Shown here one piece after another: positions 3,001 through 47,055 of a stretch of 49,754 nt of DNA. The stretch comes from an uncultured Clostridia bacterium (GTDB lineage: Bacteria > Bacillota > Clostridia > Christensenellales > UBA3700), in NCBI GenBank assembly GCA_947175555.1, contig CAMWNK010000004.1, forward strand, positions 1-49,754, read 5' to 3'. The notes beneath the pieces were generated by a model. It ran no database searches and had not been told where the DNA came from. It was given only the letters and a program-made list of their open reading frames with translations. How positions within the stretch are numbered: the first letter of the stretch is position 1; every line of letters starts with the position of its first letter. A program made the translations under genes and the position numbers.

Positions 3001-3177
3001 TGGTATAGAACGTTGCTCACAGCATTGGTTGGCGTTATGTCCGTTATGACATTGATTATTATAGTCATAGTTATACTCTTCGGCTCGTACATCAAGAGAG
3101 AAAAGGCGAAGGATAAAGGCGTCACGTATACCGAGGATAAAGGCGGAAACGACCGCGATATCGACAGCAACGATTAA
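1..3177 (+). CDS. Large cell-surface repeat protein whose 5' end lies outside the window. Tandem ~90-100 aa Ig/MBG-like modules, C-terminal TM anchor
   Basis: Frame 1 is open from nt 1, with no stop before the ORF-track Met at 169. Recurring module: KA..D.S.(L/I).W.Y ... YDGTAH ... G.Y. A G/S-rich linker is followed by the hydrophobic helix LLTALVGVMSVMTLIIIVIVILFGSYI and the charged tail KREKAKDK. No LPXTG motif. Confidence 0.8.
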   Translation, partial: YIGVELFGDKQGNSNYEIPAKTVTQTFKVLGNDITFTDADIKWQYNNTPVTNPAATLTLTYTGSIFRFSIDASDLAIKGVKIDTTKGTNGYSGDITATNAKTSGAYSVTVYITEYDNTYAEFDAVYTLTYSIDKAKYDLSGLTWDYNDSNPLQFIAGKAQGITLTGTLPTGLTISYAGNGNIPVGSYTTTASFNVSDALNYYKPISSDSNTYLGSFEWSKAWRIDKATITCSWKIDTRENVATYNLPILQSIGSMDVDSMVTYRYYDYQSGSKGDEVTIAQINSNVNQQHRYLAVAELKSEYTGNYTLDNESTDFTVGVNRYPVKLKMDIDGQQLPYRPEGYTPNVTVDSVGGLTIADITFTYFKDGATQGSTSIPVAVGKYKVQATLKYGTDDNYLDPESAEFSFEIVKADIDVSGLKWQYTHGSVTATYDSAQGKWLLADGTEANAFVYDGTAHVIALIGADALNNATVTTSGNLSEINASTAYSASATFTYDTACYNAPDFATSLNWVVNKAVVDTSAIVWGYVDKDGNELTYTEPFMYTRISGAAVEYSVTLINVPDQLKGCISIGGDYAKSEAGTHRARYSVDNSKFDSVNYEQYVMPSGLETNFDWVISARTIDNPVYNGSWSAFDDEVHDFAAMFGLPSDWQEYVNITITLNGEAYAGLTGDDFADIDGKAYKGYSAGEYKVNFALINGGNNLLFSSRPQQDIPVSVAKYRYTVEGWTDNDEYSQVIGTLPSYYDYRYVDEEGNIFTLDDMEIGSYYYREVYVKAKYDGNAEVDGETQHRFMMPLPIGTEKTPVAIPTIDSSKTVYYNGTQREFTADAIVELFGLTGFNSDYMEIVSDVSGATNAGEYKIKIRLTSGLYAWDNGDGTTSTDDIELTLTIAKAQLPSAWSNSGSLPTIDIPEELAGCLNNNAFNYTYTDEDGNTVSASEMVAGKKYNVKATLKAEYAGNFEFVDSEGNVLPDATASTSHEFDYSGNGGSGSSTDIEELLNKEFTWYRTLLTALVGVMSVMTLIIIVIVILFGSYIKREKAKDKGVTYTEDKGGNDRDIDSND

Positions 3178-13998: not shown

Positions 13999-14931
13999 TT
14001 ATTGAATGTATCTGATATCGTCGCCGTTGATGGTGAATACTTTTGAATACGACTTATTCGTTACTCTCGAGTACGTTCTCTCTCCGTAGCGGTCAAGCAA
14101 AAGGTCTGCGGATAGATTGGAAGTGATAAAAGTAGTCTTGCCCCTCACTATACGAGTGTCTAATACGGAAAAGAGCATCTCTACAGTTACTTTATTGATT
14201 ATGCTTTCACTGCCTAAATCATCTATAAACAAAGCGTCGGATTCTAAGACGTCGCTGATTATGTCGGCTTTGTTTTCTACGGGTGCGGTATGGTACTTGA
14301 GCATAAGATTATTGAACTCAAACGCTGTCATATAGGTAACGAAGTAGCCTCTCTCTATCAATCTGTTGGCGACGGCTGCCGCAACGCATGACTTGCCTGT
14401 GCCGGTAGGTCCGAGTAGCGAGACGACTTTAGTTTGAGAGCGGGGGAAGTTGTCGCAATACTTGCGCATTGCGGCATAAAGTTTGTTTAGATTATCCGAT
14501 TGCGCGCATTGCAGCGACAGCGACTTGTCGTCGTCGAAAGTAAAGTTGGGTACTCCCGTCAGATTGCATGCTCTGCGCACTAGTTCATTGTATAGCTTTA
14601 TTGCGCACGCACAAGTTTTATCGCCCGCCATGCCTGTATCTTTACATGTCTCACAGCTGTATCGGGGAGTGAAGTCCATTCCAATAGATTCAAGCGTATC
14701 GTCATAAACTTTTTTTATGCTATCGTACTCCGATTGCAGAGCGCTACAATCTCGGTTAAAGGCTTTTGCCTTGGCTATTTCGTATGTAAGTTGCCTTAAT
14801 CTATCGTCCGCTGCCGCAAAATCTTTATTTTGCCGTGCAATGGCGTAGGCGGCGGCGGCGTTTGCCTCTGCGTCTTTACGTCTTGCGCTCAGTATGTTAT
14901 TCAGTTGGAGATAAATTCCGCGTCTGTTCAT
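13999..14931 (-). CDS. dnaI: Helicase loader DnaI (AAA+, DnaC/DnaI family)
   Basis: 310 aa. Cys cluster CETCKDTG..KTCAC, Walker A GPTGTGKS, Walker B LFIDDLG. 4-nt overlap with the upstream DnaD-domain gene, as in the B. subtilis dnaB-dnaI arrangement. Confidence 0.8.
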   Translation of the reverse strand: MNRRGIYLQLNNILSARRKDAEANAAAAYAIARQNKDFAAADDRLRQLTYEIAKAKAFNRDCSALQSEYDSIKKVYDDTLESIGMDFTPRYSCETCKDTGMAGDKTCACAIKLYNELVRRACNLTGVPNFTFDDDKSLSLQCAQSDNLNKLYAAMRKYCDNFPRSQTKVVSLLGPTGTGKSCVAAAVANRLIERGYFVTYMTAFEFNNLMLKYHTAPVENKADIISDVLESDALFIDDLGSESIINKVTVEMLFSVLDTRIVRGKTTFITSNLSADLLLDRYGERTYSRVTNKSYSKVFTINGDDIRYIQ

Positions 14932-16376
14932 AGCTCTATATTATCAAAGTCCTCCGTATCTCCGAGGAATGCGTCTAATTCTTGCTTAGTATAATGTCTT
15001 TCGTAACTGCGATCGGGTTGTTTGCTTGGAGTAGCAGATACATATCCGATGCTTTTAGCTTGCTCTAAGGTATTCACGCCTGCGCTCTTCCATTTTGCAA
15101 GCATATTGCCCACATAGCTCATAGCTTGAGCTTTGCCTGCGGACAGCGACGCGGCGTAATTGATTATTTCGTCGCTGAATCCCCAATCTATTGACCAAAC
15201 GGCATATAAATCTCTGTCGTTATTGGTGATATTGCGGCTGCTTCCCGTCGCTTTGATTATAGATGATACAGCCTTGTCTCTGTCGGAGAGGGCGGCGAGA
15301 TGTTCTCTTATCGCGTCTGCGCTCAGGCATCCTTCTTTGAGGTATCTGTTGACAAGGGTATTCATACCTTCGGGGGACTTTGTACCTTTGATAAAGCATT
15401 GCTCGGCTATAAGTATGAGAGCGTCTTTATCAAAGCCCTTTCCCAGCCACGGCGTAACGTACTTTTCTATAAAGTAGTCGTAATTATCGTATCTGCCGCC
15501 CAGTATGCGTACGATTTCTTTTGCCGTATTGATTAGCTTTCTTCTGCTCTCGATATAGGCGTCTATCTCTTCGATGGTGAACAGGCTCATTCTGAAGTAG
15601 CCGTCAAGCGTATCGTCCAGTCTGTTCATGCCACCCTTATTTTTGCACAAAGATGCCGCATGCAAGATTACTTCGTCGCTGAATCCCCAACTGCCTGTCC
15701 ACTTGAGATATAGCTGTCTGTCCTCGAAGTCGGGCAGATTCTTTCTGCCGAGCGCTCGCGATATCTCGCGCAGTATCTCGGTGCACGACTCCGCCTGCTT
15801 TATCTTCTCCTCCGCCTGTTCGGGAGTTCTTATGCCGAGATTGAGCCAATCTCGCGCAACTGCAAGTATATAGTTGCTGCGTATGCCGTCCCCTTTATTG
15901 GCTACGCAATATCCTGCGATGGTGATGAGCGTCTCGTCCTTAATCTTGCTGCTTTCCAAAAATTCGTAATAGCGCTCGTATTCGTTGGGCGTAATCATGC
16001 GGTGAGGAAAAAATGCCTGCATCTGCGCGTTGAAGTCGGTAAAGCGTCCTTGCTTGAACTTATGTATCTTACCGCCTATAGAGGGCAGGTAATTATAGCT
16101 TACTTTAAGAGGGGACGTGGACGTTATCGTTACCAATCCCACGCTGCGCCAATACTCGAATGCGGATACTACCTGACTGTCTTTGATTCCCAGATATTCC
16201 GCCATTGAGGCAGTGTCTGTTATATTCGTGTCGGGCTGCGAAGATACGTACATGCCCATGAGATATACCTTAATCTGTATTTCGTCGGCGTCGGACATAT
16301 AGTCGGTAATAAAAGCGTTGTCTACGGCGCAAAAGCCATTTTTATAGAACTGCGACGACAGCGAACAAAATGCCAT
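14928..16376 (-). CDS. Replication initiation/membrane attachment protein (Bacillus DnaB-type, DnaD-domain protein)
   Basis: 482 aa. Two internal DnaB_2/DnaD-like repeats (YLKWTGSWGFSDEVILHAASLC.. and LYAVWSIDWGFSDEIINYAASLS..). Its position directly upstream of dnaI matches this call. Confidence 0.75.
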   Translation of the reverse strand: MAFCSLSSQFYKNGFCAVDNAFITDYMSDADEIQIKVYLMGMYVSSQPDTNITDTASMAEYLGIKDSQVVSAFEYWRSVGLVTITSTSPLKVSYNYLPSIGGKIHKFKQGRFTDFNAQMQAFFPHRMITPNEYERYYEFLESSKIKDETLITIAGYCVANKGDGIRSNYILAVARDWLNLGIRTPEQAEEKIKQAESCTEILREISRALGRKNLPDFEDRQLYLKWTGSWGFSDEVILHAASLCKNKGGMNRLDDTLDGYFRMSLFTIEEIDAYIESRRKLINTAKEIVRILGGRYDNYDYFIEKYVTPWLGKGFDKDALILIAEQCFIKGTKSPEGMNTLVNRYLKEGCLSADAIREHLAALSDRDKAVSSIIKATGSSRNITNNDRDLYAVWSIDWGFSDEIINYAASLSAGKAQAMSYVGNMLAKWKSAGVNTLEQAKSIGYVSATPSKQPDRSYERHYTKQELDAFLGDTEDFDNIEL

Positions 16377-25896: not shown

Positions 25897-25917
25897 TCGT
25901 CAGTTATGGCTGAGTCG

Positions 25918-25945
25918 GAGCGGCATATATTGCCGCTCTTTTTTT
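25918..25945 (+). terminator. Rho-independent terminator after the ferredoxin gene
   Basis: gagcggca-tatat-tgccgctc followed by TTTTTTT. Confidence 0.8.
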
Positions 25946-26011
25946 GCGCCTGTTATAGTTGATATAACGCGCGCGTTATGTTAAAATATAAAAAACGTAT
26001 TTACGGGTATT

Positions 26012-26923
26012 ATGAAAGATTTATTGGCTATTCGGGGGCTCACGTCCGAAATAATCGAGAGCATACTGGACAGGGCGGCTTATTATAAGACTTCTTTGGA
26101 CAGCGGCAACAAGTGTTTCGATAAACTTAAAGGTAAACTGGTTATCACGCTTTTTTATGAGAATTCCACGCGCACCCGCACATCTTTCGAGAGCGCGGCT
26201 AAGTATCTCGGCGCAGAGGTAGTCAATATCTCAGTGGCGTCGTCGAGCGTGCAAAAGGGCGAGACGTTAAAGGATACGGCAATAACGCTCGACGCTATGA
26301 AAGCCGACGCCATAATCGTTAGGCACTCGTTGGCGGGTACGGCGGACGCTATTGCCGGCTGGGTTGACGCGCACGTAATCAACGGCGGAGACGGTCTGCA
26401 CGCTCATCCCACGCAAGCGCTCTTGGACGCCTTCACTATCAAGGAAAAGTTCGGATATACCAAGGGGCTTAAGGCAGCTATCATCGGCGACATCAAGCAT
26501 AGCCGCGTGGCTCGCAGCAATATCTACCTTATGCGTACTTTGGGTATAGACGTCAATATTTACGGACCTGCTACGCTTATGCCTCAAGGCATAGATAAAC
26601 TTCCTTGCAGAGTGTGTGGCAGTATGGAAGAAGCAGTTAAAGATTGCAACGTGGTAATGACGCTGCGCATACAGGCAGAGCGCATGAAGGGCGGTCTTCT
26701 GCCTGCTCTCGGTGAGTATTCCAAGGTATTCGGCATCGATAGCAAGCTGTTGCAAGGCGCGGCAGACGACGTCATGGTCATGCACCCCGGTCCCGTCAAC
26801 AGAGGAGTAGAGCTGTCTTATGACGTGCTTGATACCGATATATGCTATAAAGATAAGCAGGTTACAAGCGGACTTGCGGTAAGAATGGCTCTGCTTGATA
26901 TGCTTATAGGCGGGGAGCTGTGA
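26012..26923 (+). CDS. pyrB: Aspartate carbamoyltransferase catalytic subunit
   Basis: Motifs: ENSTRTRTSFE, HPTQALLD, HPGPVNRG. Confidence 0.95.
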   Translation: MKDLLAIRGLTSEIIESILDRAAYYKTSLDSGNKCFDKLKGKLVITLFYENSTRTRTSFESAAKYLGAEVVNISVASSSVQKGETLKDTAITLDAMKADAIIVRHSLAGTADAIAGWVDAHVINGGDGLHAHPTQALLDAFTIKEKFGYTKGLKAAIIGDIKHSRVARSNIYLMRTLGIDVNIYGPATLMPQGIDKLPCRVCGSMEEAVKDCNVVMTLRIQAERMKGGLLPALGEYSKVFGIDSKLLQGAADDVMVMHPGPVNRGVELSYDVLDTDICYKDKQVTSGLAVRMALLDMLIGGEL

Positions 26924-26931
26924 GGTGAAGT

Positions 26932-28197
26932 ATGGCATTGATTATCAATAACGTTACGTATAAAGGTAAAGTAGTCAACCTGATAGCAGAGGACGGCATA
27001 ATAGTTTCCGTTGGCAAACGCACGCGCAAGGCGGGAGTGAAAGATACCGTAATAGACGGCACTTCGCTCACTCTGATGCCCGCGTTCATAGACATGCACG
27101 TACATTTGCGCGAGCCGGGATTTGAGTATAAAGAAGATATCCAAAGCGGTTGCATGGCGGCGGTTAAAGGCGGCTTTTCCGCAGTGTGCTGCATGCCTAA
27201 TACGCGTCCGGTAACGGATAATAAATATATCGTACAGTATATCTTGGATAAGGCTGCTAAGCTCGACATTGCTAAGGTATATCCTATCGCTGCGATAACG
27301 GTAGGCCTGGAAGGTAAAGAACTTACTAAGATGAACGCGTTACACGAGGCGGGAGCCGTTGCTTTCAGCGATGACGGCGCGCCCGTATCGGACAGTCGCA
27401 TGATGCGCAACGCTCTTGAGTATGCAGGCACTTTCGGCTATACGGTTATTGAGCATTGCGAGGACAAGTCGCTGGTTGCGGGAGGCGTGGTCAATGAGGG
27501 AGCGGTAGCTACACGTCTCGGCTTGCCCGGGATTACGCGCGCTGCCGAGGAAGTTGAGATTGCGCGCAATATAGTGCTTGCCGAGACGCTCGGAGTCAAG
27601 GTCCATATAGCTCACGTCAGTACGGAGGGCGGAGTTCAACTCATACGCGAGGCAAAAAAGAGAGGCGTAAAAGTTACTTGCGAGACGTGCCCTCACTACT
27701 TTGCTCTCACCGATGAAATACTCGAGGGCTACGATACGGCTGCAAAGGTCAATCCCCCTATCAGAGAGGAGCGCGACAGACAGGCTATTATCCGCGGCAT
27801 AGTAGACGGTACAATAGACTGCATTGTTACCGATCACGCGCCGCATAGCGCGGCGGACAAGGCGCAAGGCTACCTTGACGCGCCCAGCGGAATAAGCGGA
27901 CTGGAGACGTCGTTTGCAGTGTCTTATACCGCGCTTGTAGATTGCGGATACATTACGCTGGATAGGCTTAGCGAGCTGATGACGTATGCGCCCGCGCGCA
28001 TTCTGTCGCTGCCTTGCGGTAGGATAGAAAGGGGCGGAGTAGCCGACCTTGCGCTCGTCAATCTCAACGCTTCATACGCTGTGGATTCGTCCAAGTTTTT
28101 AAGTAAAGGCAAGAACACTCCCTTCAACGGTTACGCCGTAAAAGGAGAGGTGAAATATACGATAGTAGGCGGAAAAGTCAAATATTCTCGTCGTTAG
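26932..28197 (+). CDS. pyrC: Dihydroorotase
   Basis: Motifs: DMHVHLREPG, HIAHVST, TDHAPH. Confidence 0.95.
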   Translation: MALIINNVTYKGKVVNLIAEDGIIVSVGKRTRKAGVKDTVIDGTSLTLMPAFIDMHVHLREPGFEYKEDIQSGCMAAVKGGFSAVCCMPNTRPVTDNKYIVQYILDKAAKLDIAKVYPIAAITVGLEGKELTKMNALHEAGAVAFSDDGAPVSDSRMMRNALEYAGTFGYTVIEHCEDKSLVAGGVVNEGAVATRLGLPGITRAAEEVEIARNIVLAETLGVKVHIAHVSTEGGVQLIREAKKRGVKVTCETCPHYFALTDEILEGYDTAAKVNPPIREERDRQAIIRGIVDGTIDCIVTDHAPHSAADKAQGYLDAPSGISGLETSFAVSYTALVDCGYITLDRLSELMTYAPARILSLPCGRIERGGVADLALVNLNASYAVDSSKFLSKGKNTPFNGYAVKGEVKYTIVGGKVKYSRR

Positions 28198-28207
28198 GAG
28201 GACAGAT

Positions 28208-29563
28208 ATGGTAATAGACAGATTGATAGATGCAATCAAGGCTAAGGATAATAATCCTTCCGTAATCGGATTGGATACGTGCGTTGAGTATTTGCCCGAC
28301 GACGTGCAAGAAAAGTGCGTCAATCTCAGCGAGAGCGGCAAGCGCATAGCCGACTTCAACTTTAAGCTCATAGATGCGCTTAAGGATGTTATACCCGCGG
28401 TTAAGGTGCAGGTAGCTTATTACGAGCAGTACGGCGTAGAGGGTATGGCGGCGTTCCGCGATACGCTTGCGTATGCTAAGCAGGCAGGACTTATGACCAT
28501 CGCCGACGTAAAGCGTAACGATATCGGCTCGACGGCGTCTGCGTATGCTAAGGGATACTTGATACCGGGCGCGCCGTTTGAAAGCGACTTTATTACGGTC
28601 AACGGCTATCTCGGCAGCGACGGAGTCAAGCCTTTCGTAGACCAATGCAAGGCTAACGATAAGGGAATATTCGTGCTTGTCAAGACGTCCAATCCCACGT
28701 CTGGAGAGCTTCAGGATAAGCAGTTTGCAGGCGGCGGCACGCTGTACGACGCTATGGCGGGACTTACCGATACTTGGGGCGAGGAGCTCGTGGGCAAGTA
28801 CGGTTACAGCGGAGTAGGCGCGGTAGTGGGCGCGACACACAGACGTCAGGCTGAACTTATACGCGCGGCGCATCCTCATCTATTCTTCCTCATCCCCGGC
28901 TACGGCGCTCAAGGCGGTATGGCGGCGTTCCGCGATACGCTTGCGTATGCTAAGCAGGCAGGACTTATGACCATCGCCGACGTAAAGCGTAACGATATCG
29001 GCTCGACGGCGTCTGCGTATGCTAAGGGATACTTGATACCGGGCGCGCCGTTTGAAAGCGACTTTATTACGGTCAACGGCTATCTCGGCAGCGACGGAGT
29101 CAAGCCTTTCGTAGACCAATGCAAGGCTAACGATAAGGGAATATTCGTGCTTGTCAAGACGTCCAATCCCACGTCTGGAGAGCTTCAGGATAAGCAGTTT
29201 GCAGGCGGCGGCACGCTGTACGACGCTATGGCGGGACTTACCGATACTTGGGGCGAGGAGCTCGTGGGCAAGTACGGTTACAGCGGAGTAGGCGCGGTAG
29301 TGGGCGCGACACACAGACGTCAGGCTGAACTTATACGCGCGGCGCATCCTCATCTATTCTTCCTCATCCCCGGCTACGGCGCTCAAGGCGGTAAGGCGGA
29401 GGACCTTGCGGTCTGCTTTAAGGATGGCATAGGCGGTATAGTCAACAGCTCGCGCGGTATACTTTGCGCTTATCGCAAAGATAAATACTTATCGCTCGAT
29501 TTTGCTCAGGCGGCGCTCAAGGCGGCTATTGATATGAAAGAGGACATCAAGGCTTATCTATGA
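28208..29563 (+). CDS. pyrF: Orotidine-5'-phosphate decarboxylase (type 2) carrying an internal 158-codon tandem duplication
   Basis: Type-2 PyrF N-terminus (NPSVIGLD) and the catalytic motif ADVKRNDIG, present twice. The protein is 451 aa, versus about 293 aa if one repeat unit is removed. Confidence 0.85.
   Translation: MVIDRLIDAIKAKDNNPSVIGLDTCVEYLPDDVQEKCVNLSESGKRIADFNFKLIDALKDVIPAVKVQVAYYEQYGVEGMAAFRDTLAYAKQAGLMTIADVKRNDIGSTASAYAKGYLIPGAPFESDFITVNGYLGSDGVKPFVDQCKANDKGIFVLVKTSNPTSGELQDKQFAGGGTLYDAMAGLTDTWGEELVGKYGYSGVGAVVGATHRRQAELIRAAHPHLFFLIPGYGAQGGMAAFRDTLAYAKQAGLMTIADVKRNDIGSTASAYAKGYLIPGAPFESDFITVNGYLGSDGVKPFVDQCKANDKGIFVLVKTSNPTSGELQDKQFAGGGTLYDAMAGLTDTWGEELVGKYGYSGVGAVVGATHRRQAELIRAAHPHLFFLIPGYGAQGGKAEDLAVCFKDGIGGIVNSSRGILCAYRKDKYLSLDFAQAALKAAIDMKEDIKAYL
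28442..29389 (+). repeat. Perfect direct tandem repeat, 2 x 474 bp, inside pyrF
   Basis: 28442-28915 and 28916-29389 read identically. The repeated translation is identical in both the sense frame and an antisense frame. Confidence 0.95.
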
Positions 29564-30318
29564 AAGATTATTTATTGACCGTTAAGGATAACCGCAAGGT
29601 GGCGGACGGCGTATATGAGATGAATCTTTACGCGCCCGACATGCCCGAGCTTAAGGGCGGACAGTTTATACATATTGCTCTTAAAGATAACTCGCGCATA
29701 TTGCGCAGACCTATATGTATCTGCGACTATTGTCAAGGCGTATTGACGATATGCTATGCGCTGGTCGGCGAGGGCACGAGGCAGATGTCCGAGCTCAAGG
29801 GTGGCGACACGGTTAAGGCTATGTATCCGCTGGGTAACGGTTGGAGTGCAGAGGGATATAAGAAAGTGGCATTGCTCGGCGGCGGACTGGGCTGCGCTGT
29901 ATTGCCGCTTGTCGCCCGTCTCAATCCCGAGTGCGAGTTTAACGCATACATGGGCTTTGCCGACGTGTCGAAAGTTGTGTTGGAAGAGCGCATGAAATCG
30001 CTGTGTCCCACTACGGTAACTACCGATAACGGCACTTACGGGCGCAAAGGCTTTGTAACGGACGCTTTGGCGGCAGACCTTGCCGCAGTTAAGCCCGATG
30101 CGATTTTCTGTTGCGGACCTGAGGTTATGTTCAAGTCTATCGCGCGCAATCCCGCTTTTGCCAATATTCCCATATACGTTTCGCTCGAGGCGCGCATGGG
30201 TTGCGGACTGGGCGCATGTCTTGTATGCACGTGCGGCATACGCACGGCTGACGGCGACAAAAATCTGCGCGTATGCGCCGACGGTCCCGTATTCAAGCTC
30301 GACGAGGTGATATTATGA
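29560..30318 (+). CDS. pyrK: Dihydroorotate dehydrogenase electron-transfer subunit (FAD/[2Fe-2S])
   Basis: RRPICI, and the C-terminal CGLGACLVCTC....C cluster. Overlaps pyrF and pyrD. Confidence 0.9.
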   Translation: MKDYLLTVKDNRKVADGVYEMNLYAPDMPELKGGQFIHIALKDNSRILRRPICICDYCQGVLTICYALVGEGTRQMSELKGGDTVKAMYPLGNGWSAEGYKKVALLGGGLGCAVLPLVARLNPECEFNAYMGFADVSKVVLEERMKSLCPTTVTTDNGTYGRKGFVTDALAADLAAVKPDAIFCCGPEVMFKSIARNPAFANIPIYVSLEARMGCGLGACLVCTCGIRTADGDKNLRVCADGPVFKLDEVIL

Positions 30319-31220
30319 ATACAGGCGTAGAGATAGCCGGCGTTAAGTTTAAGAACCCTATTATTACCGCGAGCGGAACTTTCGGCTTCGGCAAGGAGTA
30401 CAACGAGCTGTATCCGATATCCGCGCTCGGCGGTATATGTACTAAAGGTCTTACGCTTAAAGAGCGCGAGGGCAATGCGTCTCCGAGAATTGCCGAGACG
30501 CCTTCGGGTATTCTCAACAGCGTCGGACTGCAAAATCCCGGGATAGAATATTATCTTGCAGAGTATGACAAGTGGCTTAGCGATTGCGGCACGACGGTAA
30601 TTGCGAATATTGCAGGCTCGAAGCTGGAGGATTACGTGGCGATAGCCGCAAGAATCAACGACAGCAGTGCGGATATGGTAGAGCTTAACATCTCCTGTCC
30701 CAACGTGCGTAGCGGCGGTATAGCCTTTGGCGTTCAGCCCGAAAGCGTGCGCAGAGTTACCGAGGCTGTCAAGAAGGTGTGCAATAAGCCCGTTATTACC
30801 AAGCTCACCCCCAACGTATCCTGCATAGCTGACAATGCCAAGGCAGCCGAGGACGGCGGCGCGGATGCAATATCGCTAATCAATACCATTACGGGTATGG
30901 CGGTGGACTATAAAAGGCGCAGACCTATACTTGCCAATAATACGGGCGGCTTGAGCGGACCTTGTGTCAAGCCGATAGCCCTGCGCATGGTGTGGGAGTG
31001 CTATAACGCGGTAAAAGTACCTATAATCGGACTGGGCGGAATTACGTCATATACCGACGTGCTCGAGTTTATGATATGCGGCGCGCGGGCAGTACAGGTC
31101 GGCACAGCCAATATATCCGATCCGTATGCGGCGCACACCATAGCTCGCGACCTTGAGGAGTATTGCCGTAGTAACGATATTGACGTCAATACGCTCGTGG
31201 GTACGCTCGAGCTTAACTAA
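30315..31220 (+). CDS. pyrD: Dihydroorotate dehydrogenase class 1B catalytic subunit
   Basis: The ATG at 30315 overlaps the pyrK stop (ATGA). Motifs: NPIITASGTFGFG, NISCPN, GGLSG. Confidence 0.92.
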   Translation: MNTGVEIAGVKFKNPIITASGTFGFGKEYNELYPISALGGICTKGLTLKEREGNASPRIAETPSGILNSVGLQNPGIEYYLAEYDKWLSDCGTTVIANIAGSKLEDYVAIAARINDSSADMVELNISCPNVRSGGIAFGVQPESVRRVTEAVKKVCNKPVITKLTPNVSCIADNAKAAEDGGADAISLINTITGMAVDYKRRRPILANNTGGLSGPCVKPIALRMVWECYNAVKVPIIGLGGITSYTDVLEFMICGARAVQVGTANISDPYAAHTIARDLEEYCRSNDIDVNTLVGTLELN

Positions 31221-31259: not shown

Positions 31260-31850
31260 ATGTTGACACAGGAGCAGGCGCTGGACATCTACAGAAAAAC
31301 AGGCGCAATACTTAAAGGACACTTCAGACTCACGTCAGGCAGACATAGCGACACTTACATGCAGAGTGCAAAGCTGTTTGTCGATCCCAAGTCGGCAGAG
31401 CTCGTATGCTCGGCTCTGGCGGAGAAGTTGAATAATGCAGGCATTAAAGCCGACTATGTTGTATCTCCCGCAATAGGCGGAATACTTATGGGTTATGAAG
31501 TAGCCCGTCAGATGGGCTTGCCCAATATATTTGCGGAGAGGGAAGACGGCGTAATGACTTTCCGTCGCGGTTTTTCACTGCCCGAGGGCGCAAAAGTAGT
31601 CGTAGTCGAGGACGTCGTAACCACGGGCGGCTCGGTAAGAGAAGTTATTGCGCTGTGCAAAGAGAGCGGGGCTGAGGTGCAGGCAGTCGCGTCCTTAGTG
31701 GATAGGAGCAGCGGCAAGGTCGACTTCGGCGTCAAGTTTGTCAATCTCATCAGCATGGAAGTTACCTCTTACGAGCCTGAGGAGTGCCCTATCTGCAAAG
31801 AGGGCAAGATAGAGCTTGTCAAGCCGGGCTCAAGGACTTTTAAGAAATAA
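31260..31850 (+). CDS. pyrE: Orotate phosphoribosyltransferase
   Basis: GHFRLTSGRHSD and the PRPP loop VVVVEDVVTTGGS. Confidence 0.92.
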   Translation: MLTQEQALDIYRKTGAILKGHFRLTSGRHSDTYMQSAKLFVDPKSAELVCSALAEKLNNAGIKADYVVSPAIGGILMGYEVARQMGLPNIFAEREDGVMTFRRGFSLPEGAKVVVVEDVVTTGGSVREVIALCKESGAEVQAVASLVDRSSGKVDFGVKFVNLISMEVTSYEPEECPICKEGKIELVKPGSRTFKK

Positions 31851-39988: not shown

Positions 39989-42595
39989 ATGGCAAAGGTA
40001 CAAATCGTTAATGACGAGCAGAGCTTATTGCAGCGTCTTGCCGAGGTAAGAGCGGCGCAGGCTCAATACGCCACTTACACACAGGAGCAGGTTGATAAGA
40101 TTTTCTTTGAAGCGGCTATGGCTGCCAACAAGATGAGAATTCCGCTTGCTAAGATGGCAGTCGAGGAGACTGGCATGGGCGTAGTGGAGGATAAGGTAAT
40201 CAAGAATCATTATGCCTCCGAGTATATCTATAATGCGTATAAGGATACCAAGACTTGCGGCGTGCTCGAGTACGATGCCGGTTTCGGTCTCAAGAAGATT
40301 GCCGAGCCTATCGGCGTTATCGCGGCGGTAATACCTACCACCAACCCTACTTCTACTGCTATATTCAAGTCGCTGCTCGCGCTCAAGACGCGCAACGCGC
40401 TTATCTTCTCCCCTCATCCCCGTGCAAAGAAGGCTACTATTGCCGCTGCTAAGGTTGTATTGGACGCTGCTGTCAAGGCAGGCGCTCCCGAGGGAATCAT
40501 CAGCTGGATTGACGAGCCCAGCGTTCCGCTTTCGGGCATGATAATGAAAGAGGCTGATATCATCCTCGCAACCGGCGGTCCCGGCATGGTTAAGGCAGCT
40601 TACTCTTCGGGCAAGCCCGCCGTAGGCGTAGGCGCAGGTAATACTCCCGCGCTCATCGACGACCTTGCGGATATCAAGACTGCCGCAGCTTCCGTAATTC
40701 ACTCCAAGACGTTCGATAACGGTATGATTTGCGCTTCCGAGCAATCCGTAGTCGTTCTTAAGGACGTATATGCCGAGTTCAAGAAAGAGATGCAGGCGCG
40801 CGGCGCTTACTTCCTCAGCGCGGAAGAGACCGACAAGATGAGAGCAACCATTCTCATCAACGGCGCGCTTAACGCTAAGATAGTCGGACAGCCCGCTACC
40901 AAGATTGCCGAGATGGCAGGCTTTACTGCTCCTGCAGGCGCTAAAGTTTTGGTAGGCGAGGTCGACAGCGTAGATATCAGCGAGCCTTTCGCTCACGAGA
41001 AGCTCAGCCCTGTGCTTGCTATGTATAAGGCTAAAGATTTCGACGATGCGGTCAATAAGGCAGAGCAGCTCATCAACGACGGCGGTTTGGGACATACATC
41101 GGTAATTTATACCAATCCCGAGACCGGTAAGGAGAAGATAGATAAATTCGTATCGAGGATGCGCACTTGCCGTATTCTTGTCAATACCCCTTCTTCGCAG
41201 GGCGGTATCGGCGATTTGTACAATTTCAAACTTGCGCCTTCGCTCACGCTCGGATGCGGTAGCTGGGGCGGTAACAGCGTCAGCGAAAACGTAGGTATTA
41301 AGCACCTTATCAACATTAAGACGGTTGCGGAAAGGAGAGAGAATATGTTGTGGTTTAGAGCGCCCGAAAAGGTTTATTTCAAGAAGGGCTGCTTGGGCGT
41401 TGCTTTGCAAGAGCTCAAGCACGTTATGAATAAGAAGAAGGCGTTCATAGTTACCGACTCCTTCTTGTTCAAGAGCGGATTTACTAAGCTCATCACCGAC
41501 AGACTTGACGAAATGGGCATTTCTCACACCACTTTCTTCGAGGTTGCGCCCGATCCTACGCTTGCATGCGCTAAAGAAGGCGCTAAGGCTATGGCTGCAT
41601 TCCAGCCCGATGTGATACTCGCTATCGGCGGCGGTTCGGCTATGGACGCAGGTAAGATTATGTGGGTACTTTACGAGCATCCGGAAATCAACTTCCAAGA
41701 CCTCGCTATGAGATTTATGGATATCCGTAAGAGGGTATACACCTTCCCTCATATGGGCGATAAGGCTTACTTTATCGCTATACCTACCACGGCAGGTACG
41801 GGTTCCGAGGTTACGCCTTTTGCGGTCATCACCGACGAGACCGACGGCACTAAGTATCCTCTTGCCGACTATGAGCTCATGCCCGATATGGCTATCATAG
41901 ACGCCGATCTTATGATGAATATCCCTAAGGGACTTACGGCAGCTTCCGGTATCGACGCGCTCACTCATGCGCTCGAGGCTATTGCGTCCATGCTTGCTAC
42001 CGATTATACCAACGGTATCGCTATGGAAGCTATTAAGCTGATATTCGAGTATCTGCCCCGCGCATATTCGCTCGGCGGTCATGACGCAGAGGCAAGAGAG
42101 AGGATGGCCAACGCTTCCTGCATGGCAGGTATGGCTTTTGCCAATGCGTTTCTCGGTGTTTGCCACTCTATGGCGCACAAGCTGGGCAGCTATCATCATT
42201 TGCCTCACGGTATTGCCAACGCGCTCATGATTAACGAAGTTATCAAGTTCAACTCCGCAGAGTGTCCCGCTAAGATGGGTACTTTCCCTCAGTATAAGTA
42301 TCCCGAGGCTATGAAGAGATACGCAGGCGTTGCCGACGCGCTCGGACTTGCGGGCAAGAACGATGCCGAGAAGGTCAAGGCTCTCATGAATAAAATCGAA
42401 GAGCTCAAGAAGGCAGTCGAGATTAAGGCTACCATCAAGGATTACGGTATCGACGAAGCCGACTTCCTTGCAAGATTGGACAGCATGACCGAGGACGCTT
42501 TCGACGATCAGTGCACGGGCGCTAATCCCAGATATCCTCTTATGAGCGAGATCAAGCAGATGTACCTCAACGCTTATTACGGCGTAAAGAAGTAA
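39989..42595 (+). CDS. adhE: Bifunctional acetaldehyde-CoA/alcohol dehydrogenase
   Basis: 868 aa. N-terminal ALDH domain (catalytic Cys context FDNGMICASEQS) and a C-terminal Fe-ADH domain (GGGSAMDAGK, His cluster HSMAHKLG..HHLPHG). Confidence 0.96.
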   Translation: MAKVQIVNDEQSLLQRLAEVRAAQAQYATYTQEQVDKIFFEAAMAANKMRIPLAKMAVEETGMGVVEDKVIKNHYASEYIYNAYKDTKTCGVLEYDAGFGLKKIAEPIGVIAAVIPTTNPTSTAIFKSLLALKTRNALIFSPHPRAKKATIAAAKVVLDAAVKAGAPEGIISWIDEPSVPLSGMIMKEADIILATGGPGMVKAAYSSGKPAVGVGAGNTPALIDDLADIKTAAASVIHSKTFDNGMICASEQSVVVLKDVYAEFKKEMQARGAYFLSAEETDKMRATILINGALNAKIVGQPATKIAEMAGFTAPAGAKVLVGEVDSVDISEPFAHEKLSPVLAMYKAKDFDDAVNKAEQLINDGGLGHTSVIYTNPETGKEKIDKFVSRMRTCRILVNTPSSQGGIGDLYNFKLAPSLTLGCGSWGGNSVSENVGIKHLINIKTVAERRENMLWFRAPEKVYFKKGCLGVALQELKHVMNKKKAFIVTDSFLFKSGFTKLITDRLDEMGISHTTFFEVAPDPTLACAKEGAKAMAAFQPDVILAIGGGSAMDAGKIMWVLYEHPEINFQDLAMRFMDIRKRVYTFPHMGDKAYFIAIPTTAGTGSEVTPFAVITDETDGTKYPLADYELMPDMAIIDADLMMNIPKGLTAASGIDALTHALEAIASMLATDYTNGIAMEAIKLIFEYLPRAYSLGGHDAEARERMANASCMAGMAFANAFLGVCHSMAHKLGSYHHLPHGIANALMINEVIKFNSAECPAKMGTFPQYKYPEAMKRYAGVADALGLAGKNDAEKVKALMNKIEELKKAVEIKATIKDYGIDEADFLARLDSMTEDAFDDQCTGANPRYPLMSEIKQMYLNAYYGVKK

Positions 42596-44125: not shown

Positions 44126-44521
44126 ATGAAAAAGAAAGTAGCAGTTGTAGCAGTTGCGCTTTGCCTTGTCATCGCGCTCGTAGCCTTGTGCGCATGCACG
44201 CCCAGCGTTGATAAACTTAAGGATAAGTTTACCAAAGACGGCTATCATGTAGAGGCAATATCTACTGATGGATTTGAGGATGCTAAAGTCGAGTATGCTT
44301 TTACGGCTTTCAAGGGTGGAGACAGCATCTTTGATCTCGTCAGCGGCGCCGAGATGATTACTGTAGTTTGCTTCAGCAACAGCGATGATGCTAAGACCTA
44401 TTATGAGAAGGCTAAAGAGACTGCAGAACAGTCTGAAGAGTTGATGGGTATTAAAATGTCGGTTAAGAAGAAGGGTAACGCTATCGCTTCCGGTACCGAA
44501 GGCGCTCTTAAGCTTTTCTAA
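44126..44521 (+). CDS. Small lipoprotein, function unknown
   Basis: MKKKVAVVAVALCLVIALVALCAC signal peptide with lipobox. AGGAGG RBS. Confidence 0.7.
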   Translation: MKKKVAVVAVALCLVIALVALCACTPSVDKLKDKFTKDGYHVEAISTDGFEDAKVEYAFTAFKGGDSIFDLVSGAEMITVVCFSNSDDAKTYYEKAKETAEQSEELMGIKMSVKKKGNAIASGTEGALKLF

Positions 44522-44550
44522 TTTAAGACAGCTTTAAGCAAAAGAATTTT

Positions 44551-44590
44551 TACCCCGACTTATTTTATAGGTCGGGGTATTTATATTTGT
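44551..44590 (+). terminator. Terminator after the lipoprotein gene
   Basis: taccccgac-11 nt-gtcggggta followed by a T-rich tract. Confidence 0.65.
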
Positions 44591-45087
44591 CGTTATGTTA
44601 TTTGTGTACTATAAATATTTGAGATATAATTTGCTATGCATTAATTATAATTAAGCCGACATTTCAAACTTATTTTTATAAAATACAATCTTTCCTATTT
44701 GTATAGTAGCCTCTAATCTTTTATGCAGTTCAGGCTTTTGCTTTGCGGCTCTTTGAATGTTCTTAAATAGCGATTCAATTTCGCAATCAGAAAAAAGTTG
44801 CACCTTGAAAATTTGAGATTTGCTCACAACACCTTAAAAGAATGACTAAAATTTAATGTACATGGGATACAGCAAGAGGTAAGGTATTAACCTTTGACAG
44901 CAACACTTGAAAAGTTCACCTCTCTTTATCTCTATAATGAACCAATTGTCTGTCAGTATTAGTAAATAGTTTTTGGTACAAATTTGGTACACATTAAAAG
45001 TTGCTTATTTTTCTTCTATGGATTTCAGTTATATTTAATGGCTTTGCAGGATATTTTGGGTTGTTATACCCTGCAAGGACCAAAATT

Positions 45088-45178
45088 TGGCGGAGAGAGA
45101 GGGATTCGAACCCTCGGTACGGTATTAGCGTACACACGATTTCCAATCGTGCTCTTTCGGCCTCTCAGACATCTCTCC
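45088..45178 (-). tRNA. tRNA-Ser (anticodon GGA), long variable arm, CCA encoded
   Basis: Reverse complement GGAGAGAUGUCUGAGAGGCCGAAAGAGCACGAUUGGAAAUCGUGUGUACGCUAAUACCGUACCGAGGGUUCGAAUCCCUCUCUCUCCGCCA. Anticodon loop UUGGAAA. Confidence 0.92.
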
Positions 45179-45391
45179 AAAAAAGCATTAAAATGATATC
45201 ATAAATAAAACAAATATTCAAGTAAAATGCGGCTCATTTAGAATATAAGATTAAAGTTGTTATATTTATCAAGTTATTAATTATCGATTAGCGCGCTTGC
45301 GAGGGTAATTATAGAAGTCTGCAGTTAAATAAATATATATAAAAATTTTATTGATTTAGAGTGCGGTGATAAATTGAAATTAATTTTAAGA

Positions 45392-45414
45392 AATTGCAGT
45401 TGTAAGAAAATTGT
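45392..45414 (+). repeat. Left arm of a 21/23 inverted repeat flanking the 4-gene module
   Basis: aattgcagttgtaag (15/15) plus aaaattgt. The partner arm is at 49553-49575. Confidence 0.6.
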
Positions 45415-45455
45415 CATAATTTTGTAAATCAGTTGAAATAGATAGGTTTTATAAT
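45401..45455 (+). promoter_or_regulatory. Four 11-bp-phased hexamers (TGTAAG/TGTCAT/TGTAAA/TGAAAT) plus a TATAAT -10 element lacking a -35. Candidate OmpR/PhoB-type activator-dependent promoter.
   Basis: Hexamers start at 45401, 45412, 45423 and 45434. The -10 TATAAT is at 45450-45455. The gene's ATG is at 45481. Confidence 0.4.
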
Positions 45456-45480
45456 TCAAGTATACAGGAGGCGTAAGGCA

Positions 45481-47055
45481 ATGGGAATACGATTGGCGAT
45501 AACCGGTGCCAGCGGGCACATGGGCAAGGCGGTAATGCAAGAGCTGAAAGGGCTTGAGAGTATCGAGTCGGTTAAGATATTGTTGCTCAACAATGCAGAG
45601 CAGCGTCGTTACGGGCGCAAGTTCAAGCGCATGTTTGGCAAAAAAATGCAAGTAATATACGGCGACATAGTTGACTACGATAACTGTAAAGAGCTCGTAG
45701 ACGGCAGTGATTACGTAATACATATGGCGGCTGTCATACCGCCCGATGCGGATAAATACGCGGACAAGTGTTATGACTGCAATTACGTCGGGACGGTGAA
45801 TATCGTAGACGCGGTGCTTGCGCAGGCAAAGCAGCCCAAGCTGATACATTGCTCGACTGTGGCTGTGTACGGACACCGCAATTATTTGCATCCTTGGGGC
45901 AGAGTGGGCGACCCGTTGCTTGTATCGCCGTTCGATAACTATGCGGCGGCGAAGTTAAAGGCGGAGCGTTACTTATTGGATAGTAATGTCAAGTGCTGGG
46001 CGGTGCTCAGGCAGACGGGCATATTGTATAAAGATTTGCTTATGAGCAACATCGGAGACGGACTTATGTTCCACACCTGTCTAAACGTGCCGCTCGAGTG
46101 GGTGAGCGACAAAGACAGCGGCGTACTGATTCGCAATATTCTTTTGAAAGATATAGCAGGCTCGGCGGACGACTTCTGGATGAAGGTATACAATATCGGC
46201 GGTGGAGACGGCAACAGGAATACCGGATACGAGACTTTTGACTCGTGTTTTAAGGAGTTTGGCATTCCGACTAAAAAGGTTATGAAACCGATATGGCATT
46301 CTATCCGCAATTTTCACGGAGTGTGGTTTGAAGATGCGGATGCCCTTGAGGACATGTTCCGCTTCCGCAGCGATACGGTTGTAGGTTTTTGGCGTCGCGC
46401 GCTCAATCCTATATATAAACTTGCGCGCATAGTGCCGCCGTCCTTGATATCAAAGCTGGTTATACAGCGTCTGCTTGACGATTATAATTCTCCGCTCAAG
46501 TGGATTAAAGACGGCGAGAAAGGTAAAGTCAAGGCATATTTCGGCAGCGGCAGTAACGTGGAGTGTATGCCGATGACGTGGCAAGACTTTCCTCTGCTTG
46601 CAGAAGGGCGCATAGTAGCAGGAGATATAGATTACGAAGCTATGCGCGACGTATCCAACGTGCGCAGGCTCGGCTATAGGCTCGATCACGGCTATGACGA
46701 GAGCAAGCCCGATTGCGAGCTCGATATTGACGACATGCGTAAAGCGGCTGTATTCCGCGGCGGCAAATGTCTGTCGGAGAGCATGGTAAAAGGCGACTTG
46801 TATACTAAGCTCAAGTGGCAGTGCCATGACGGGCACATATTCGAGGCTACGCCTTACGCGGTAATTAAGGCAGGTCATTGGTGCCCCGTGTGCTGCCAGC
46901 CCGGGGAGTGGGACTTCGACCGTCAGGCAACTTTTTCTCCTTTCTTTGCGCAAGTATGGTACGACACTCATGCAAAAGGCGAGAGATATGTTTATTATTA
47001 CGATGCCGACGGGGTAGCTACATTCAGAAGATATACGGAGGATAAGGCGGCATGA
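45481..47055 (+). CDS. Extended-SDR NAD-dependent epimerase/dehydratase-like protein fused to a C-terminal Zn-ribbon-containing domain
   Basis: Rossmann ITGASGHMGKAV and catalytic YAAAK (YxxxK). The C-terminal ~190 aa include KWQCHDGHIFEATPYAVIKAGHWCPVCC. AGGAGG RBS. Confidence 0.75.
   Translation: MGIRLAITGASGHMGKAVMQELKGLESIESVKILLLNNAEQRRYGRKFKRMFGKKMQVIYGDIVDYDNCKELVDGSDYVIHMAAVIPPDADKYADKCYDCNYVGTVNIVDAVLAQAKQPKLIHCSTVAVYGHRNYLHPWGRVGDPLLVSPFDNYAAAKLKAERYLLDSNVKCWAVLRQTGILYKDLLMSNIGDGLMFHTCLNVPLEWVSDKDSGVLIRNILLKDIAGSADDFWMKVYNIGGGDGNRNTGYETFDSCFKEFGIPTKKVMKPIWHSIRNFHGVWFEDADALEDMFRFRSDTVVGFWRRALNPIYKLARIVPPSLISKLVIQRLLDDYNSPLKWIKDGEKGKVKAYFGSGSNVECMPMTWQDFPLLAEGRIVAGDIDYEAMRDVSNVRRLGYRLDHGYDESKPDCELDIDDMRKAAVFRGGKCLSESMVKGDLYTKLKWQCHDGHIFEATPYAVIKAGHWCPVCCQPGEWDFDRQATFSPFFAQVWYDTHAKGERYVYYYDADGVATFRRYTEDKAA

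What the first reader, a model, noticed from the sequence alone, without database searches (positions are those of the whole stretch)
28442..29393. Perfect in-frame 474-bp tandem duplication inside pyrF (OMP decarboxylase)
By direct reading, nt 28442-28915 and 28916-29389 are identical. The 158-aa sense segment GMAAFRDTLAYAKQAG...LIPGYGAQG occurs twice. The antisense ORFs 28178..28879 and 28880..29353 share an identical ~147-aa N-terminus, so the DNA is constrained in two frames. Because 474 = 158 x 3, pyrF stays open: 451 aa, versus about 293 aa after removing one unit, which is the normal size for type-2 PyrF. The duplicated block carries the catalytic D-x-K-x-x-D motif (ADVKRNDIG) and most of the TIM barrel. 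The unit boundaries sit in a 10-nt near-repeat (GGTATGGCGG at 28442 and 28916, GGTAAGGCGG at 29390), which is the footprint expected for slipped-strand or unequal-crossover duplication. Zero divergence points to a very recent event, a subpopulation variant or an assembly artefact. If real, an essential de novo pyrimidine enzyme is either inactivated or converted into a fused pseudo-dimeric barrel, inside an otherwise intact pyrBCFKDE operon.
Basis: seen in the sequence. Interest (0 to 1): 0.7.

Follow-up and report, generated by a model that had tools for sequence, protein, structure and literature searches.

The report
Recent internal tandem duplication in pyrF
One assembly of an uncultured gut-type Clostridia bacterium carries a perfect, in-frame 474-base repeat inside its pyrimidine-synthesis gene pyrF that an otherwise identical sister assembly lacks; this is most likely a very young, reversible copying slip (or an assembly error), not a new kind of enzyme.

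Summary
Window 28442-28915 and 28916-29389 are identical (474 nt, 0 mismatches). This lengthens type-2 pyrF from 293 to 451 aa, in frame, inside an intact pyrB-C-F-K-D-E operon.

A public sister contig (GCA_029058825.1, JAIDXL010000065.1) has single-copy pyrF. It matches the window base for base over the remaining 48.1 kb, apart from 42 clustered, mostly synonymous substitutions near the 5' end. The window is therefore an independent assembly of the same strain, not an edited copy. The 451-aa product is on record on one public contig of the window's length. All other relatives listed are 251-324 aa.

The unit is bounded by a 4-nt exact microhomology (GGTA) inside a 9/10 near-repeat. That is rare for arbitrary breakpoints (2.4% and 0.13%) and typical of microhomology-mediated tandem duplication.

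Only beta-strands 3-7 are duplicated, so two barrels cannot form. The model shows one OMP-decarboxylase barrel plus a low-confidence insert of about 160 aa. The antisense ORFs are ordinary shadow ORFs.

Best reading (about 0.6): a real, very recent, strain-polymorphic, revertible duplication that probably impairs PyrF. Main rival (about 0.3): an assembly or library artefact. Only reads or PCR can decide. Interest is low.

The parts
28208..29563 (+). pyrF (type-2 OMP decarboxylase) carrying the internal duplication; 451 aa instead of 293
   Evidence: ORF. PF00215 E=9.6e-46 in 2 stretches. TIGR02127 pyrF_sub2 407.6 bits. PDB 3r89 E=8.8e-58 for the collapsed form.
28442..28915 (+). Duplication unit, copy 1 (aa 79-236: most of alpha2, beta3 to beta7, and the GYGAQG phosphate loop)
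   Evidence: Identical to copy 2. Secondary structure.
28916..29389 (+). Duplication unit, copy 2 (aa 237-394)
   Evidence: Absent from sister contig JAIDXL010000065.1.
28442..28451 (+). Left microhomology arm GGTATGGCGG (exact part GGTA, codon phase 0)
28916..28925 (+). Novel junction (…CTCAAGGC|GGTATGGCGG…). This is the only sequence that does not exist in the single-copy allele.
   Evidence: The junction 50-mer was used.
29390..29399 (+). Right microhomology arm GGTAAGGCGG (9/10 identical to the left arm; lies 474 nt from it in the single-copy allele)
28505..28522 (+). Catalytic DxKxxD motif (DVKRND, aa 100-105), copy 1
   Evidence: D100, K102 and D105 are invariant in alignment A1.
28979..28996 (+). 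Catalytic DxKxxD motif (aa 258-263), copy 2
29560..29563 (+). ATGA overlap of the pyrF stop and the pyrK start. It is untouched by the duplication, so no frameshift and no polar effect are expected.
26012..26923 (+). pyrB (aspartate carbamoyltransferase)
   Evidence: PF02729 and PF00185.
26932..28197 (+). pyrC (dihydroorotase)
   Evidence: PF01979 and PF12890. Identical product in the sister contig.
29560..30318 (+). pyrK (DHOD B electron-transfer subunit)
   Evidence: PF10418. Identical product in the sister contig.
30315..31220 (+). pyrD (dihydroorotate dehydrogenase). The start is as called in the sister record (301 aa); the longest ORF starts at 30273.
   Evidence: PF01180 E=3.3e-84. Gene call in L001.
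31260..31850 (+). pyrE (orotate phosphoribosyltransferase)
   Evidence: PF00156.

Best explanation
This is a genuine, very recent microhomology-mediated tandem duplication (an internal tandem duplication allele) of pyrF. It is present in the bacterial population sampled by this assembly and absent from a sister population of the same strain.

Formation (inferred). During replication the nascent strand, or a sister-strand exchange, misaligned between two in-phase near-repeats, GGTA(T/A)GGCGG, that lie 474 nt apart in the wild-type gene. The join fell within the exact GGTA, and the intervening 474 nt were copied twice. Homology this short implies a RecA-independent slippage or template-switch event, not homologous recombination.

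Consequence (inferred, lower confidence). The reading frame and the coupled downstream pyrK start are preserved, so the operon is still expressed. The protein now has 13 beta-alpha units: beta1 and beta2 once, beta3-beta7 twice, beta8 once. It can at best thread one barrel and must extrude about 158 residues next to the catalytic DxKxxD loop and the dimer interface. I therefore expect a null or strongly hypomorphic PyrF, meaning pyrimidine auxotrophy or dependence on salvage.

Fate (inferred). The two 474-nt perfect copies are a good substrate for unequal exchange or slippage. The allele should revert precisely to wild type, or expand to three or more copies, at a far higher rate than it arose. 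It is a transient polymorphism, not a stable architecture.
For: Shown:
- Perfect 2x 474-nt tandem repeat.
- The single-copy ancestral state exists in public contig JAIDXL010000065.1. That contig equals the window with one copy removed at every base of window 1176-49754.
- The window is an independent assembly, not an edit of that record. It differs by 42 clustered substitutions (35 synonymous and 5 nonsynonymous codons) at window 333-1175, and its ends differ by 279 and 22 nt.
- The 451-aa product is itself on record in the 15-billion-protein collection, from NCBI and ENA, on one contig of 49,754 nt, which is the window's length.
- The boundaries carry 4 nt of exact microhomology inside a 9/10 10-mer. 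Only 2.4% of arbitrary breakpoints at period 474 have at least 4 nt, and only 0.13% lie in such a 10-mer.
- There is no longer flanking repeat.

Literature (bioRxiv 10.64898/2026.02.28.708716): microhomology-mediated tandem duplications have arms of at least 4 bp, segments of about 10-500 bp, occur de novo in bacteria, are the dominant class of tandem duplication (about 50-70% with arms of 3 bp or more, against 1.6% expected), and revert readily.

No fixed lineage has this architecture. The top 120 homologues for both the 293-aa and the 451-aa query are 251-324 aa, and all other listed members of the 90% cluster are 293 aa.

Structure: AF2 gives high confidence for residues 1-103 and 281-451 and pLDDT below 50 for most of 104-280. 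The model matches one OMPDC barrel (3r89; TM 0.86 normalised to the target, 0.56 normalised to the query).
Against: - No reads are available, so nothing shows directly that molecules with the junction exist or at what frequency.
- Zero divergence between the copies, and absence from the only other assembly of this strain, are also what an artefact would give.
- The allele disrupts a normally important biosynthetic gene, yet it would have to be at high frequency in the sampled population to enter a consensus contig.
- Copy number (2 or more than 2) cannot be judged from an assembly.
- The AF2 confidence pattern follows where MAFFT placed the homologues, so it is weak evidence about folding. Loss of function is inferred, not shown.
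Confidence: 0.6

Rival explanations
1. Assembly or library artefact. The organism has single-copy pyrF. The second copy was created by chimeric reads (polymerase template switching at the microhomology during amplification), by an overlap-based gap-closing or contig-merging step, or by mis-traversal of a spurious loop in the assembly graph.
For: - The sister assembly of the same strain has one copy.
- The two copies are 100% identical.
- The 451-aa product occurs on a single contig only, and no relative has it.
- MAG contigs are known to contain misassemblies enriched at repeats (PMC9661791).
- From memory, not checked: some de Bruijn assemblers close graph gaps on overlaps of about 10 nt with a tolerated mismatch. 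That would leave a similar footprint. In-vitro polymerase chimeras also form at microhomologies.
Against: - A de Bruijn assembler with k of 21 or more cannot create the junction from a 10-nt near-repeat unless junction k-mers are present in the reads (inference from how such assemblers work).
- Simple concatenation of overlapping contig ends would give arbitrary breakpoints, but the observed ones have microhomology seen at only 0.13-2.4% of arbitrary positions.
- There are no Ns or other duplications in the contig.
- Random chimeric reads are individually rare and are normally pruned as low-coverage edges.
Confidence: 0.3
2. The duplication is real and the 451-aa protein keeps useful OMP decarboxylase activity: one copy completes the barrel and the other is tolerated as an insertion. 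On this reading the allele is neutral or even selected, for example as a first step toward a new domain arrangement or circular permutation.
For: - The duplication is in frame and the downstream coupling is intact.
- All catalytic residues are present at least once.
- AF2 can thread one complete barrel (TM 0.86 to 3r89).
- The allele reached consensus level in one assembly.
Against: - The in-frame outcome is expected from the in-phase near-repeats.
- The 158-aa insert lies beside the DxKxxD loop and the dimer interface (established OMPDC structural knowledge).
- No related lineage has fixed such an architecture.
- The extruded segment is a hydrophobic five-strand partial barrel with low model confidence.
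Confidence: 0.08
3. The window is a public contig into which a duplication was inserted in silico, as a planted control or an editing error.
For: With one copy removed, the window is identical to record JAIDXL010000065.1 over 48.1 kb.
Against: - The exact 451-aa product is already in the protein collection, with sources NCBI and ENA, on a contig of 49,754 nt.
- The window also differs from the record by 42 mostly synonymous substitutions and has different contig ends.
- The breakpoints have non-random microhomology.
Confidence: 0.02

Closest known systems
Microhomology-mediated tandem duplication (MTD), first defined in S. pombe and since reported de novo in bacteria, archaea, fungi and viruses (bioRxiv 10.64898/2026.02.28.708716)
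   Same: An exact 1x-to-2x tandem copy of a segment that is single-copy in a reference. The segment is flanked by arms of at least 4 bp (here GGTA, within a 9/10 10-mer), and its length (474 nt) lies within the reported range of about 10-500 bp. The event is polymorphic within a species and is expected to revert.
   Different: The unit is at the long end of the reported range. The arm is at the minimum length, although it is extended by imperfect homology. Reversion and read-level frequency were not observed here.
RecA-independent slipped-strand or sister-strand-exchange rearrangements at short direct repeats in bacteria (work of Lovett, Reams and Roth; recalled from established literature, with related papers listed)
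   Same: The homology is far below what RecA-dependent recombination needs, the product is a direct tandem duplication, and the resulting long perfect repeat is itself unstable.
   Different: Those systems were characterised in E. coli and Salmonella reporter constructs. Here there is no genetic evidence about which pathway acted.
Loss-of-function tandem duplications and indels recovered in pyrE/pyrF by 5-fluoroorotate selection (for example the Sulfolobus acidocaldarius mutation spectra, PMC7785828)
   Same: Tandem duplications are a recognised class of spontaneous inactivating mutation in the last two genes of UMP synthesis.
   Different: Those are laboratory-selected mutants. This allele comes from an unselected environmental or gut assembly, and its phenotype is unknown.
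False duplications and repeat-associated misassemblies in genome and metagenome assemblies (PMC9661791 and related work)
   Same: A perfect duplicate seen in one assembly and not in another.
   Different: Typical false duplications sit at contig or scaffold joins or at haplotype bubbles, and their breakpoints are not tied to microhomology.

Membership tests
Type-2 orotidine-5'-phosphate decarboxylase (PyrF, TIGR02127 / PF00215) | Scores above the curated family cutoff | tested here: met
   TIGR02127 407.6 bits against a cutoff of 110.6. PF00215 156.9 bits against 27. PDB 3r89 E=8.8e-58 over residues 2-291 of the collapsed form.
Type-2 orotidine-5'-phosphate decarboxylase (PyrF, TIGR02127 / PF00215) | Catalytic residues present: beta1 Asp, beta2 Lys, the DxKxxD motif, the phosphate-loop Gln and Gly, and the beta8 Arg | tested here: met
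   D23, K66, D100, K102, D105 and R416 are invariant, and Q393 is nearly invariant, in a 46-sequence alignment. DVKRND is present twice.
Type-2 orotidine-5'-phosphate decarboxylase (PyrF, TIGR02127 / PF00215) | A single uninterrupted (beta/alpha)8 barrel of about 290-300 aa | tested here: not met
   The protein is 451 aa and the family models match in 2 stretches. All listed relatives are 251-324 aa. The model shows one barrel plus a low-confidence insert.
Type-2 orotidine-5'-phosphate decarboxylase (PyrF, TIGR02127 / PF00215) | OMP decarboxylase activity | not testable with these tools
   Needs complementation or an enzyme assay.
Microhomology-mediated tandem duplication | An exact tandem 2x copy of a segment that is single-copy in a reference genome of the same strain or species | tested here: met
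   The sister contig holds exactly one unit, and the flanks are identical.
Microhomology-mediated tandem duplication | Microhomology arms of at least 4 bp at the two ends of the segment in the single-copy allele | tested here: met
   GGTA is exact, within GGTATGGCGG / GGTAAGGCGG (9/10). The chance expectation is 2.4% for at least 4 nt.
Microhomology-mediated tandem duplication | Junction-bearing molecules present in the DNA sample, and reversion to one copy | not testable with these tools
   No reads or cultures are available. Searches for the junction 50-mer in two contig collections were uninformative, because the wild-type boundary control was also absent.
Homologous-recombination (R-D-R-D-R) tandem duplication | Flanking direct repeats of tens of bp or more at high identity (for example at least 35 bp at 92% or more, as in the 'Tandem' classifier) | tested here: not met
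   Identity ends 4 nt past the unit, with a mismatch immediately to the left. There is no other long repeat in the window.
Overlapping (dual-coding) antisense gene | An antisense ORF that is unusually long for its context, or that has homologues or domains | tested here: not met
   No Pfam hit at E of 0.1 or less. Comparable or longer antisense open frames occur in pyrB, pyrC, pyrK, pyrD, abcF and adhE.

The most novel reading that the evidence does not exclude
The duplication is real, is at high frequency in its host population, and acts as a naturally occurring reversible on/off (or low/high) switch of de novo pyrimidine synthesis in a gut anaerobe. Alternatively, the 451-aa protein is active and captures the first step of TIM-barrel remodelling by segmental duplication in the wild.
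Probability: 0.06. Interest if true: 0.5.

Novelty: new member of a known kind. Interest (0 to 1): 0.2.

Why it matters
If the duplication is real, it is a clean natural example of a microhomology-mediated internal tandem duplication. Both the ancestral allele and the derived allele are captured in otherwise identical genomes. That makes it useful as an illustration of how structural mutations outpace point mutations within a strain, and as a caution that this MAG may be a pyrimidine auxotroph. If it is an artefact, it is a useful flag for that public record: its pyrF annotation (451 aa) should not be propagated. In neither case does it reveal a new enzyme, system or mechanism.

Tried and rejected
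1. Planted or edited sequence. I suspected this when the window minus one copy proved identical to JAIDXL010000065.1. I rejected it because the 451-aa product is on record from NCBI and ENA on a contig of 49,754 nt, and because the window carries 42 further, mostly synonymous differences and has different ends.

2. Junction search in public collections. The junction 50-mer was absent from genome contigs and metagenome contigs, but so was the wild-type boundary 49-mer. Those collections simply do not hold this genome, so the result is uninformative.

3. Exact look-up of the 451-aa product with the look-up of encoding contigs returned nothing, presumably because the window's own record is withheld. 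The listing of cluster members did find it.

4. A literature search for the accession found nothing, and so did a search for pyrF together with in-frame tandem duplication.

5. Dual-coding antisense ORFs: rejected.

6. Pseudo-dimeric double barrel: rejected on topology. Only beta3-beta7 are duplicated, and the model holds one barrel.

7. Homologous-recombination origin: rejected, because there is no flanking repeat longer than the 10-nt near-repeat.

8. Regulatory RNA in the operon: there were no Rfam hits other than two tRNAs elsewhere in the window.

9. Internally duplicated PyrF in other lineages: none among the top 120 hits with the 451-aa query. Sensitivity is limited to cluster representatives.

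Full report
**1. The observation**

- Reading the window directly and comparing the two stretches by script shows that 28442-28915 and 28916-29389 are identical: 474 nt with no mismatch.
- Identity continues for four more bases (GGTA) to 29393. It is broken immediately to the left of 28442 (G against C).
- Tandem Repeats Finder reports one array at 28442-29399, with period 474, 2.0 copies and score 1909.
- A repeat scan of the whole window finds no other long repeat, and the window contains no N.
- The repeat lies inside the ORF 28208-29563 (451 aa). In that protein, residues 79-236 recur as 237-394, and the DVKRND motif occurs at residues 100 and 258.
- Deleting one unit gives a 293-aa protein.

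**2. What the gene and its surroundings are**

- The ORF is a type-2 OMP decarboxylase. TIGR02127 scores 407.6 bits against a cutoff of 110.6, and PF00215 matches in two stretches.
- The collapsed 293-aa form aligns end to end with the crystal-structure sequence 3r89 (E=8.8e-58).
- The neighbours are pyrB, pyrC, pyrK, pyrD and pyrE. The pyrF stop overlaps the pyrK start (ATGA at 29560-29563), and the duplication leaves this overlap intact.

**3. Where the sequence comes from, and the single-copy allele**

Exact-product look-ups for pyrC and pyrK led to one public record: GCA_029058825.1, contig JAIDXL010000065.1 (49,581 nt), a 'MAG: Clostridia bacterium'. Its pyrF is 293 aa.

I rebuilt that contig from five overlapping loci and compared it with the window:

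- With one 474-nt copy removed, the window corresponds to record positions 280-49559.
- It is identical at every base from window 1176 to the end.
- The only other differences are 42 substitutions at window 333-1175, in a 5'-truncated gene for a large repetitive surface protein. They comprise 35 synonymous and 5 nonsynonymous codon changes, and 36 of the 42 fall at third codon positions.

I briefly suspected that the window was the record with a duplication inserted. That is excluded for three reasons:

- The exact 451-aa product is already in the 15-billion-protein collection, with sources NCBI and ENA, on one contig of 49,754 nt, which is the window's length.
- The SNP patch looks like real allelic divergence.
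- The contig ends differ by 279 and 22 nt.

So there are two independent assemblies of essentially the same strain, one with the duplication and one without.

**4. How unusual the duplication is among relatives**

- With the 293-aa query, the best 120 clusters are 251-324 aa long.
- With the 451-aa query, under which an internally duplicated relative would outscore single-copy ones, the best 120 are again all 324 aa or shorter.
- In the 90%-identity cluster (32 members, 15 listed), every listed member other than the window's protein is 293 aa. Some of these members are seen on about 100 contigs.
- A relative with 84% nucleotide identity has the same operon and a 293-aa pyrF. Its equivalent boundary 10-mers match at only 7 of 10 positions.

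**5. Anatomy of the breakpoints**

- In the single-copy allele the unit is flanked by GGTATGGCGG and GGTAAGGCGG, 474 nt apart. Both start in codon phase 0 and encode G-M-A and G-K-A.
- On the single-copy contig, 2.4% of arbitrary breakpoints at period 474 have at least 4 nt of microhomology, and 0.13% fall in a 10-mer matching at 9 of 10 positions or better. For random periods of 100-2000 nt the figures are 2.0% and 0.04%.
- The breakpoints are therefore not arbitrary, as they would be if two overlapping contig ends had been concatenated.
- There is no flanking repeat long enough for homologous recombination. By comparison, the 'Tandem' classifier asks for at least 35 bp at 92% identity.
- The pattern fits microhomology-mediated tandem duplication as described in bioRxiv 10.64898/2026.02.28.708716: arms of at least 4 bp, segments of about 10-500 bp, de novo occurrence in bacteria, and ready reversion. 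In that work 50-70% of real tandem duplications have arms of 3 bp or more, against 1.6% expected by chance.

**6.

*Antisense ORFs.* The two ORFs (28178-28879 and 28880-29353) share 146 N-terminal residues simply because the DNA is duplicated. They have no Pfam match at E of 0.1 or less. The codon-aligned antisense frame is open for 201-856 aa in pyrB, pyrC, pyrK, pyrD, abcF and adhE as well. They are shadow ORFs, not evidence of dual coding.

*In-frame outcome.* This is weak evidence of selection. Of the 43 10-mer pairs matching at 9 of 10 positions or better inside single-copy pyrF, 31 are spaced by a multiple of three.

**7. What the protein would look like**

- By the DSSP of the model and the alignment, the unit runs from the start of helix alpha2 through beta3-beta7 to the GYGAQG phosphate loop.
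- Beta1 (D23), beta2 (K66) and beta8 (R416) occur only once, so the chain has 13 beta-alpha units and cannot form two barrels.
- AlphaFold2, run with a 46-sequence alignment, gives high confidence for residues 1-103 and 281-451 and pLDDT below 50 for most of 104-280.
- Foldseek matches the model to OMP decarboxylase 3r89 with a TM-score of 0.86 normalised to the target but only 0.56 normalised to the query. This means one barrel plus an extruded insert.
- Caveat: the confident regions are exactly where MAFFT placed the homologues, so this result is illustrative only.
- From established OMPDC structural knowledge, the DxKxxD loop sits at the C-terminal end of beta3 and its second Asp reaches into the partner subunit's active site. 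A 158-residue insert in this region is therefore likely to be damaging. This is inference.

**8. Real or artefact?**

For a real duplication:
- The breakpoints are non-random and have the signature of a slippage event.
- A k-mer graph assembler cannot invent the junction from a 10-nt near-repeat unless junction k-mers are in the reads.
- The contig shows no other sign of misjoining.

For an artefact:
- The copies show zero divergence.
- The duplication occurs in a single contig.
- It is absent from the sister assembly.
- It disrupts a normally useful gene.
- In-vitro chimeras and overlap-based gap closing can also use microhomology. This last point is from memory and was not tested.

The continuous single-copy sister contig implies that the junction was absent or rare in that sample. 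The difference therefore lies between samples or between assemblies.

My split is about 0.6 for a real polymorphic allele, 0.3 for an artefact, and the remainder for a tolerated functional variant or other readings. Copy number above two cannot be excluded from an assembly.

**9. Verdict**

The core interpretation is supported and now has an ancestral allele to anchor it. Two side claims, dual coding and a pseudo-dimeric barrel, are rejected. This is a new instance of a known mutation class, or possibly an artefact, in a well-known gene. Interest is low. The decisive test is read mapping or PCR across the junction.

Noticed in passing
window 333-1175 (within the 5'-truncated ORF 1-3177, + strand): Apart from the duplication, the only differences from sister contig JAIDXL010000065.1 are 42 substitutions clustered in 843 nt of a large repetitive surface-protein gene (1151 aa in the sister record). 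They comprise 35 synonymous and 5 nonsynonymous codon changes. There are no differences in the other 48.1 kb. This looks like a recombination or gene-conversion patch, or a strain-mixed assembly path.
   Followed up: partly
window ends (1 and 49754) compared with record positions 280 and 49559: Both assemblies break at almost the same places: the window ends 279 nt (5') and 22 nt (3') inside the sister contig. This suggests the same genomic repeats or strain variation stopped both assemblers. The 22-nt offset could reflect different k-mer sizes, but that is speculation.
   Followed up: no
window 7982-10036 (+): A 684-aa protein made largely of ankyrin repeats (PF12796, PF13637, PF13857 in the sister record's precomputed hits). 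It follows a 327-aa ORF with no Pfam hit. Ankyrin-repeat proteins are uncommon in free-living Clostridia.
   Followed up: no
window 13999-16376 (-): An adjacent pair of genes with a DnaB_2 domain (482 aa, PF07261) and an IstB_IS21/DnaC-like ATPase domain (310 aa, PF01695). This is probably the Firmicutes-type DnaB/DnaI helicase-loading pair and not an IS21 element.
   Followed up: no
window 44521-45481, including tRNA-Ser(GGA) at 45088-45178 (-): A low-GC stretch of about 1 kb (0.38 for 44-46 kb, against about 0.5 elsewhere) with no called gene except a tRNA-Ser. It lies upstream of a 524-aa NAD-dependent epimerase/dehydratase gene.
   Followed up: no
window 25917-25987 (+): A terminator-like hairpin with a T-run (25917-25939) lies just after the 56-aa ferredoxin gene. 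It is followed by promoter-like hexamers (25959-25987) upstream of pyrB. This could be the ferredoxin terminator or a pyr attenuator. No Rfam PyrR element was detected.
   Followed up: partly
window 39989-42595, antisense strand: The adhE-like gene (868 aa) has a codon-aligned antisense frame that stays open for 856 aa (listed as a 727-aa ORF at 40025-42208). This is a striking shadow ORF that a naive scan could mistake for a gene.
   Followed up: partly
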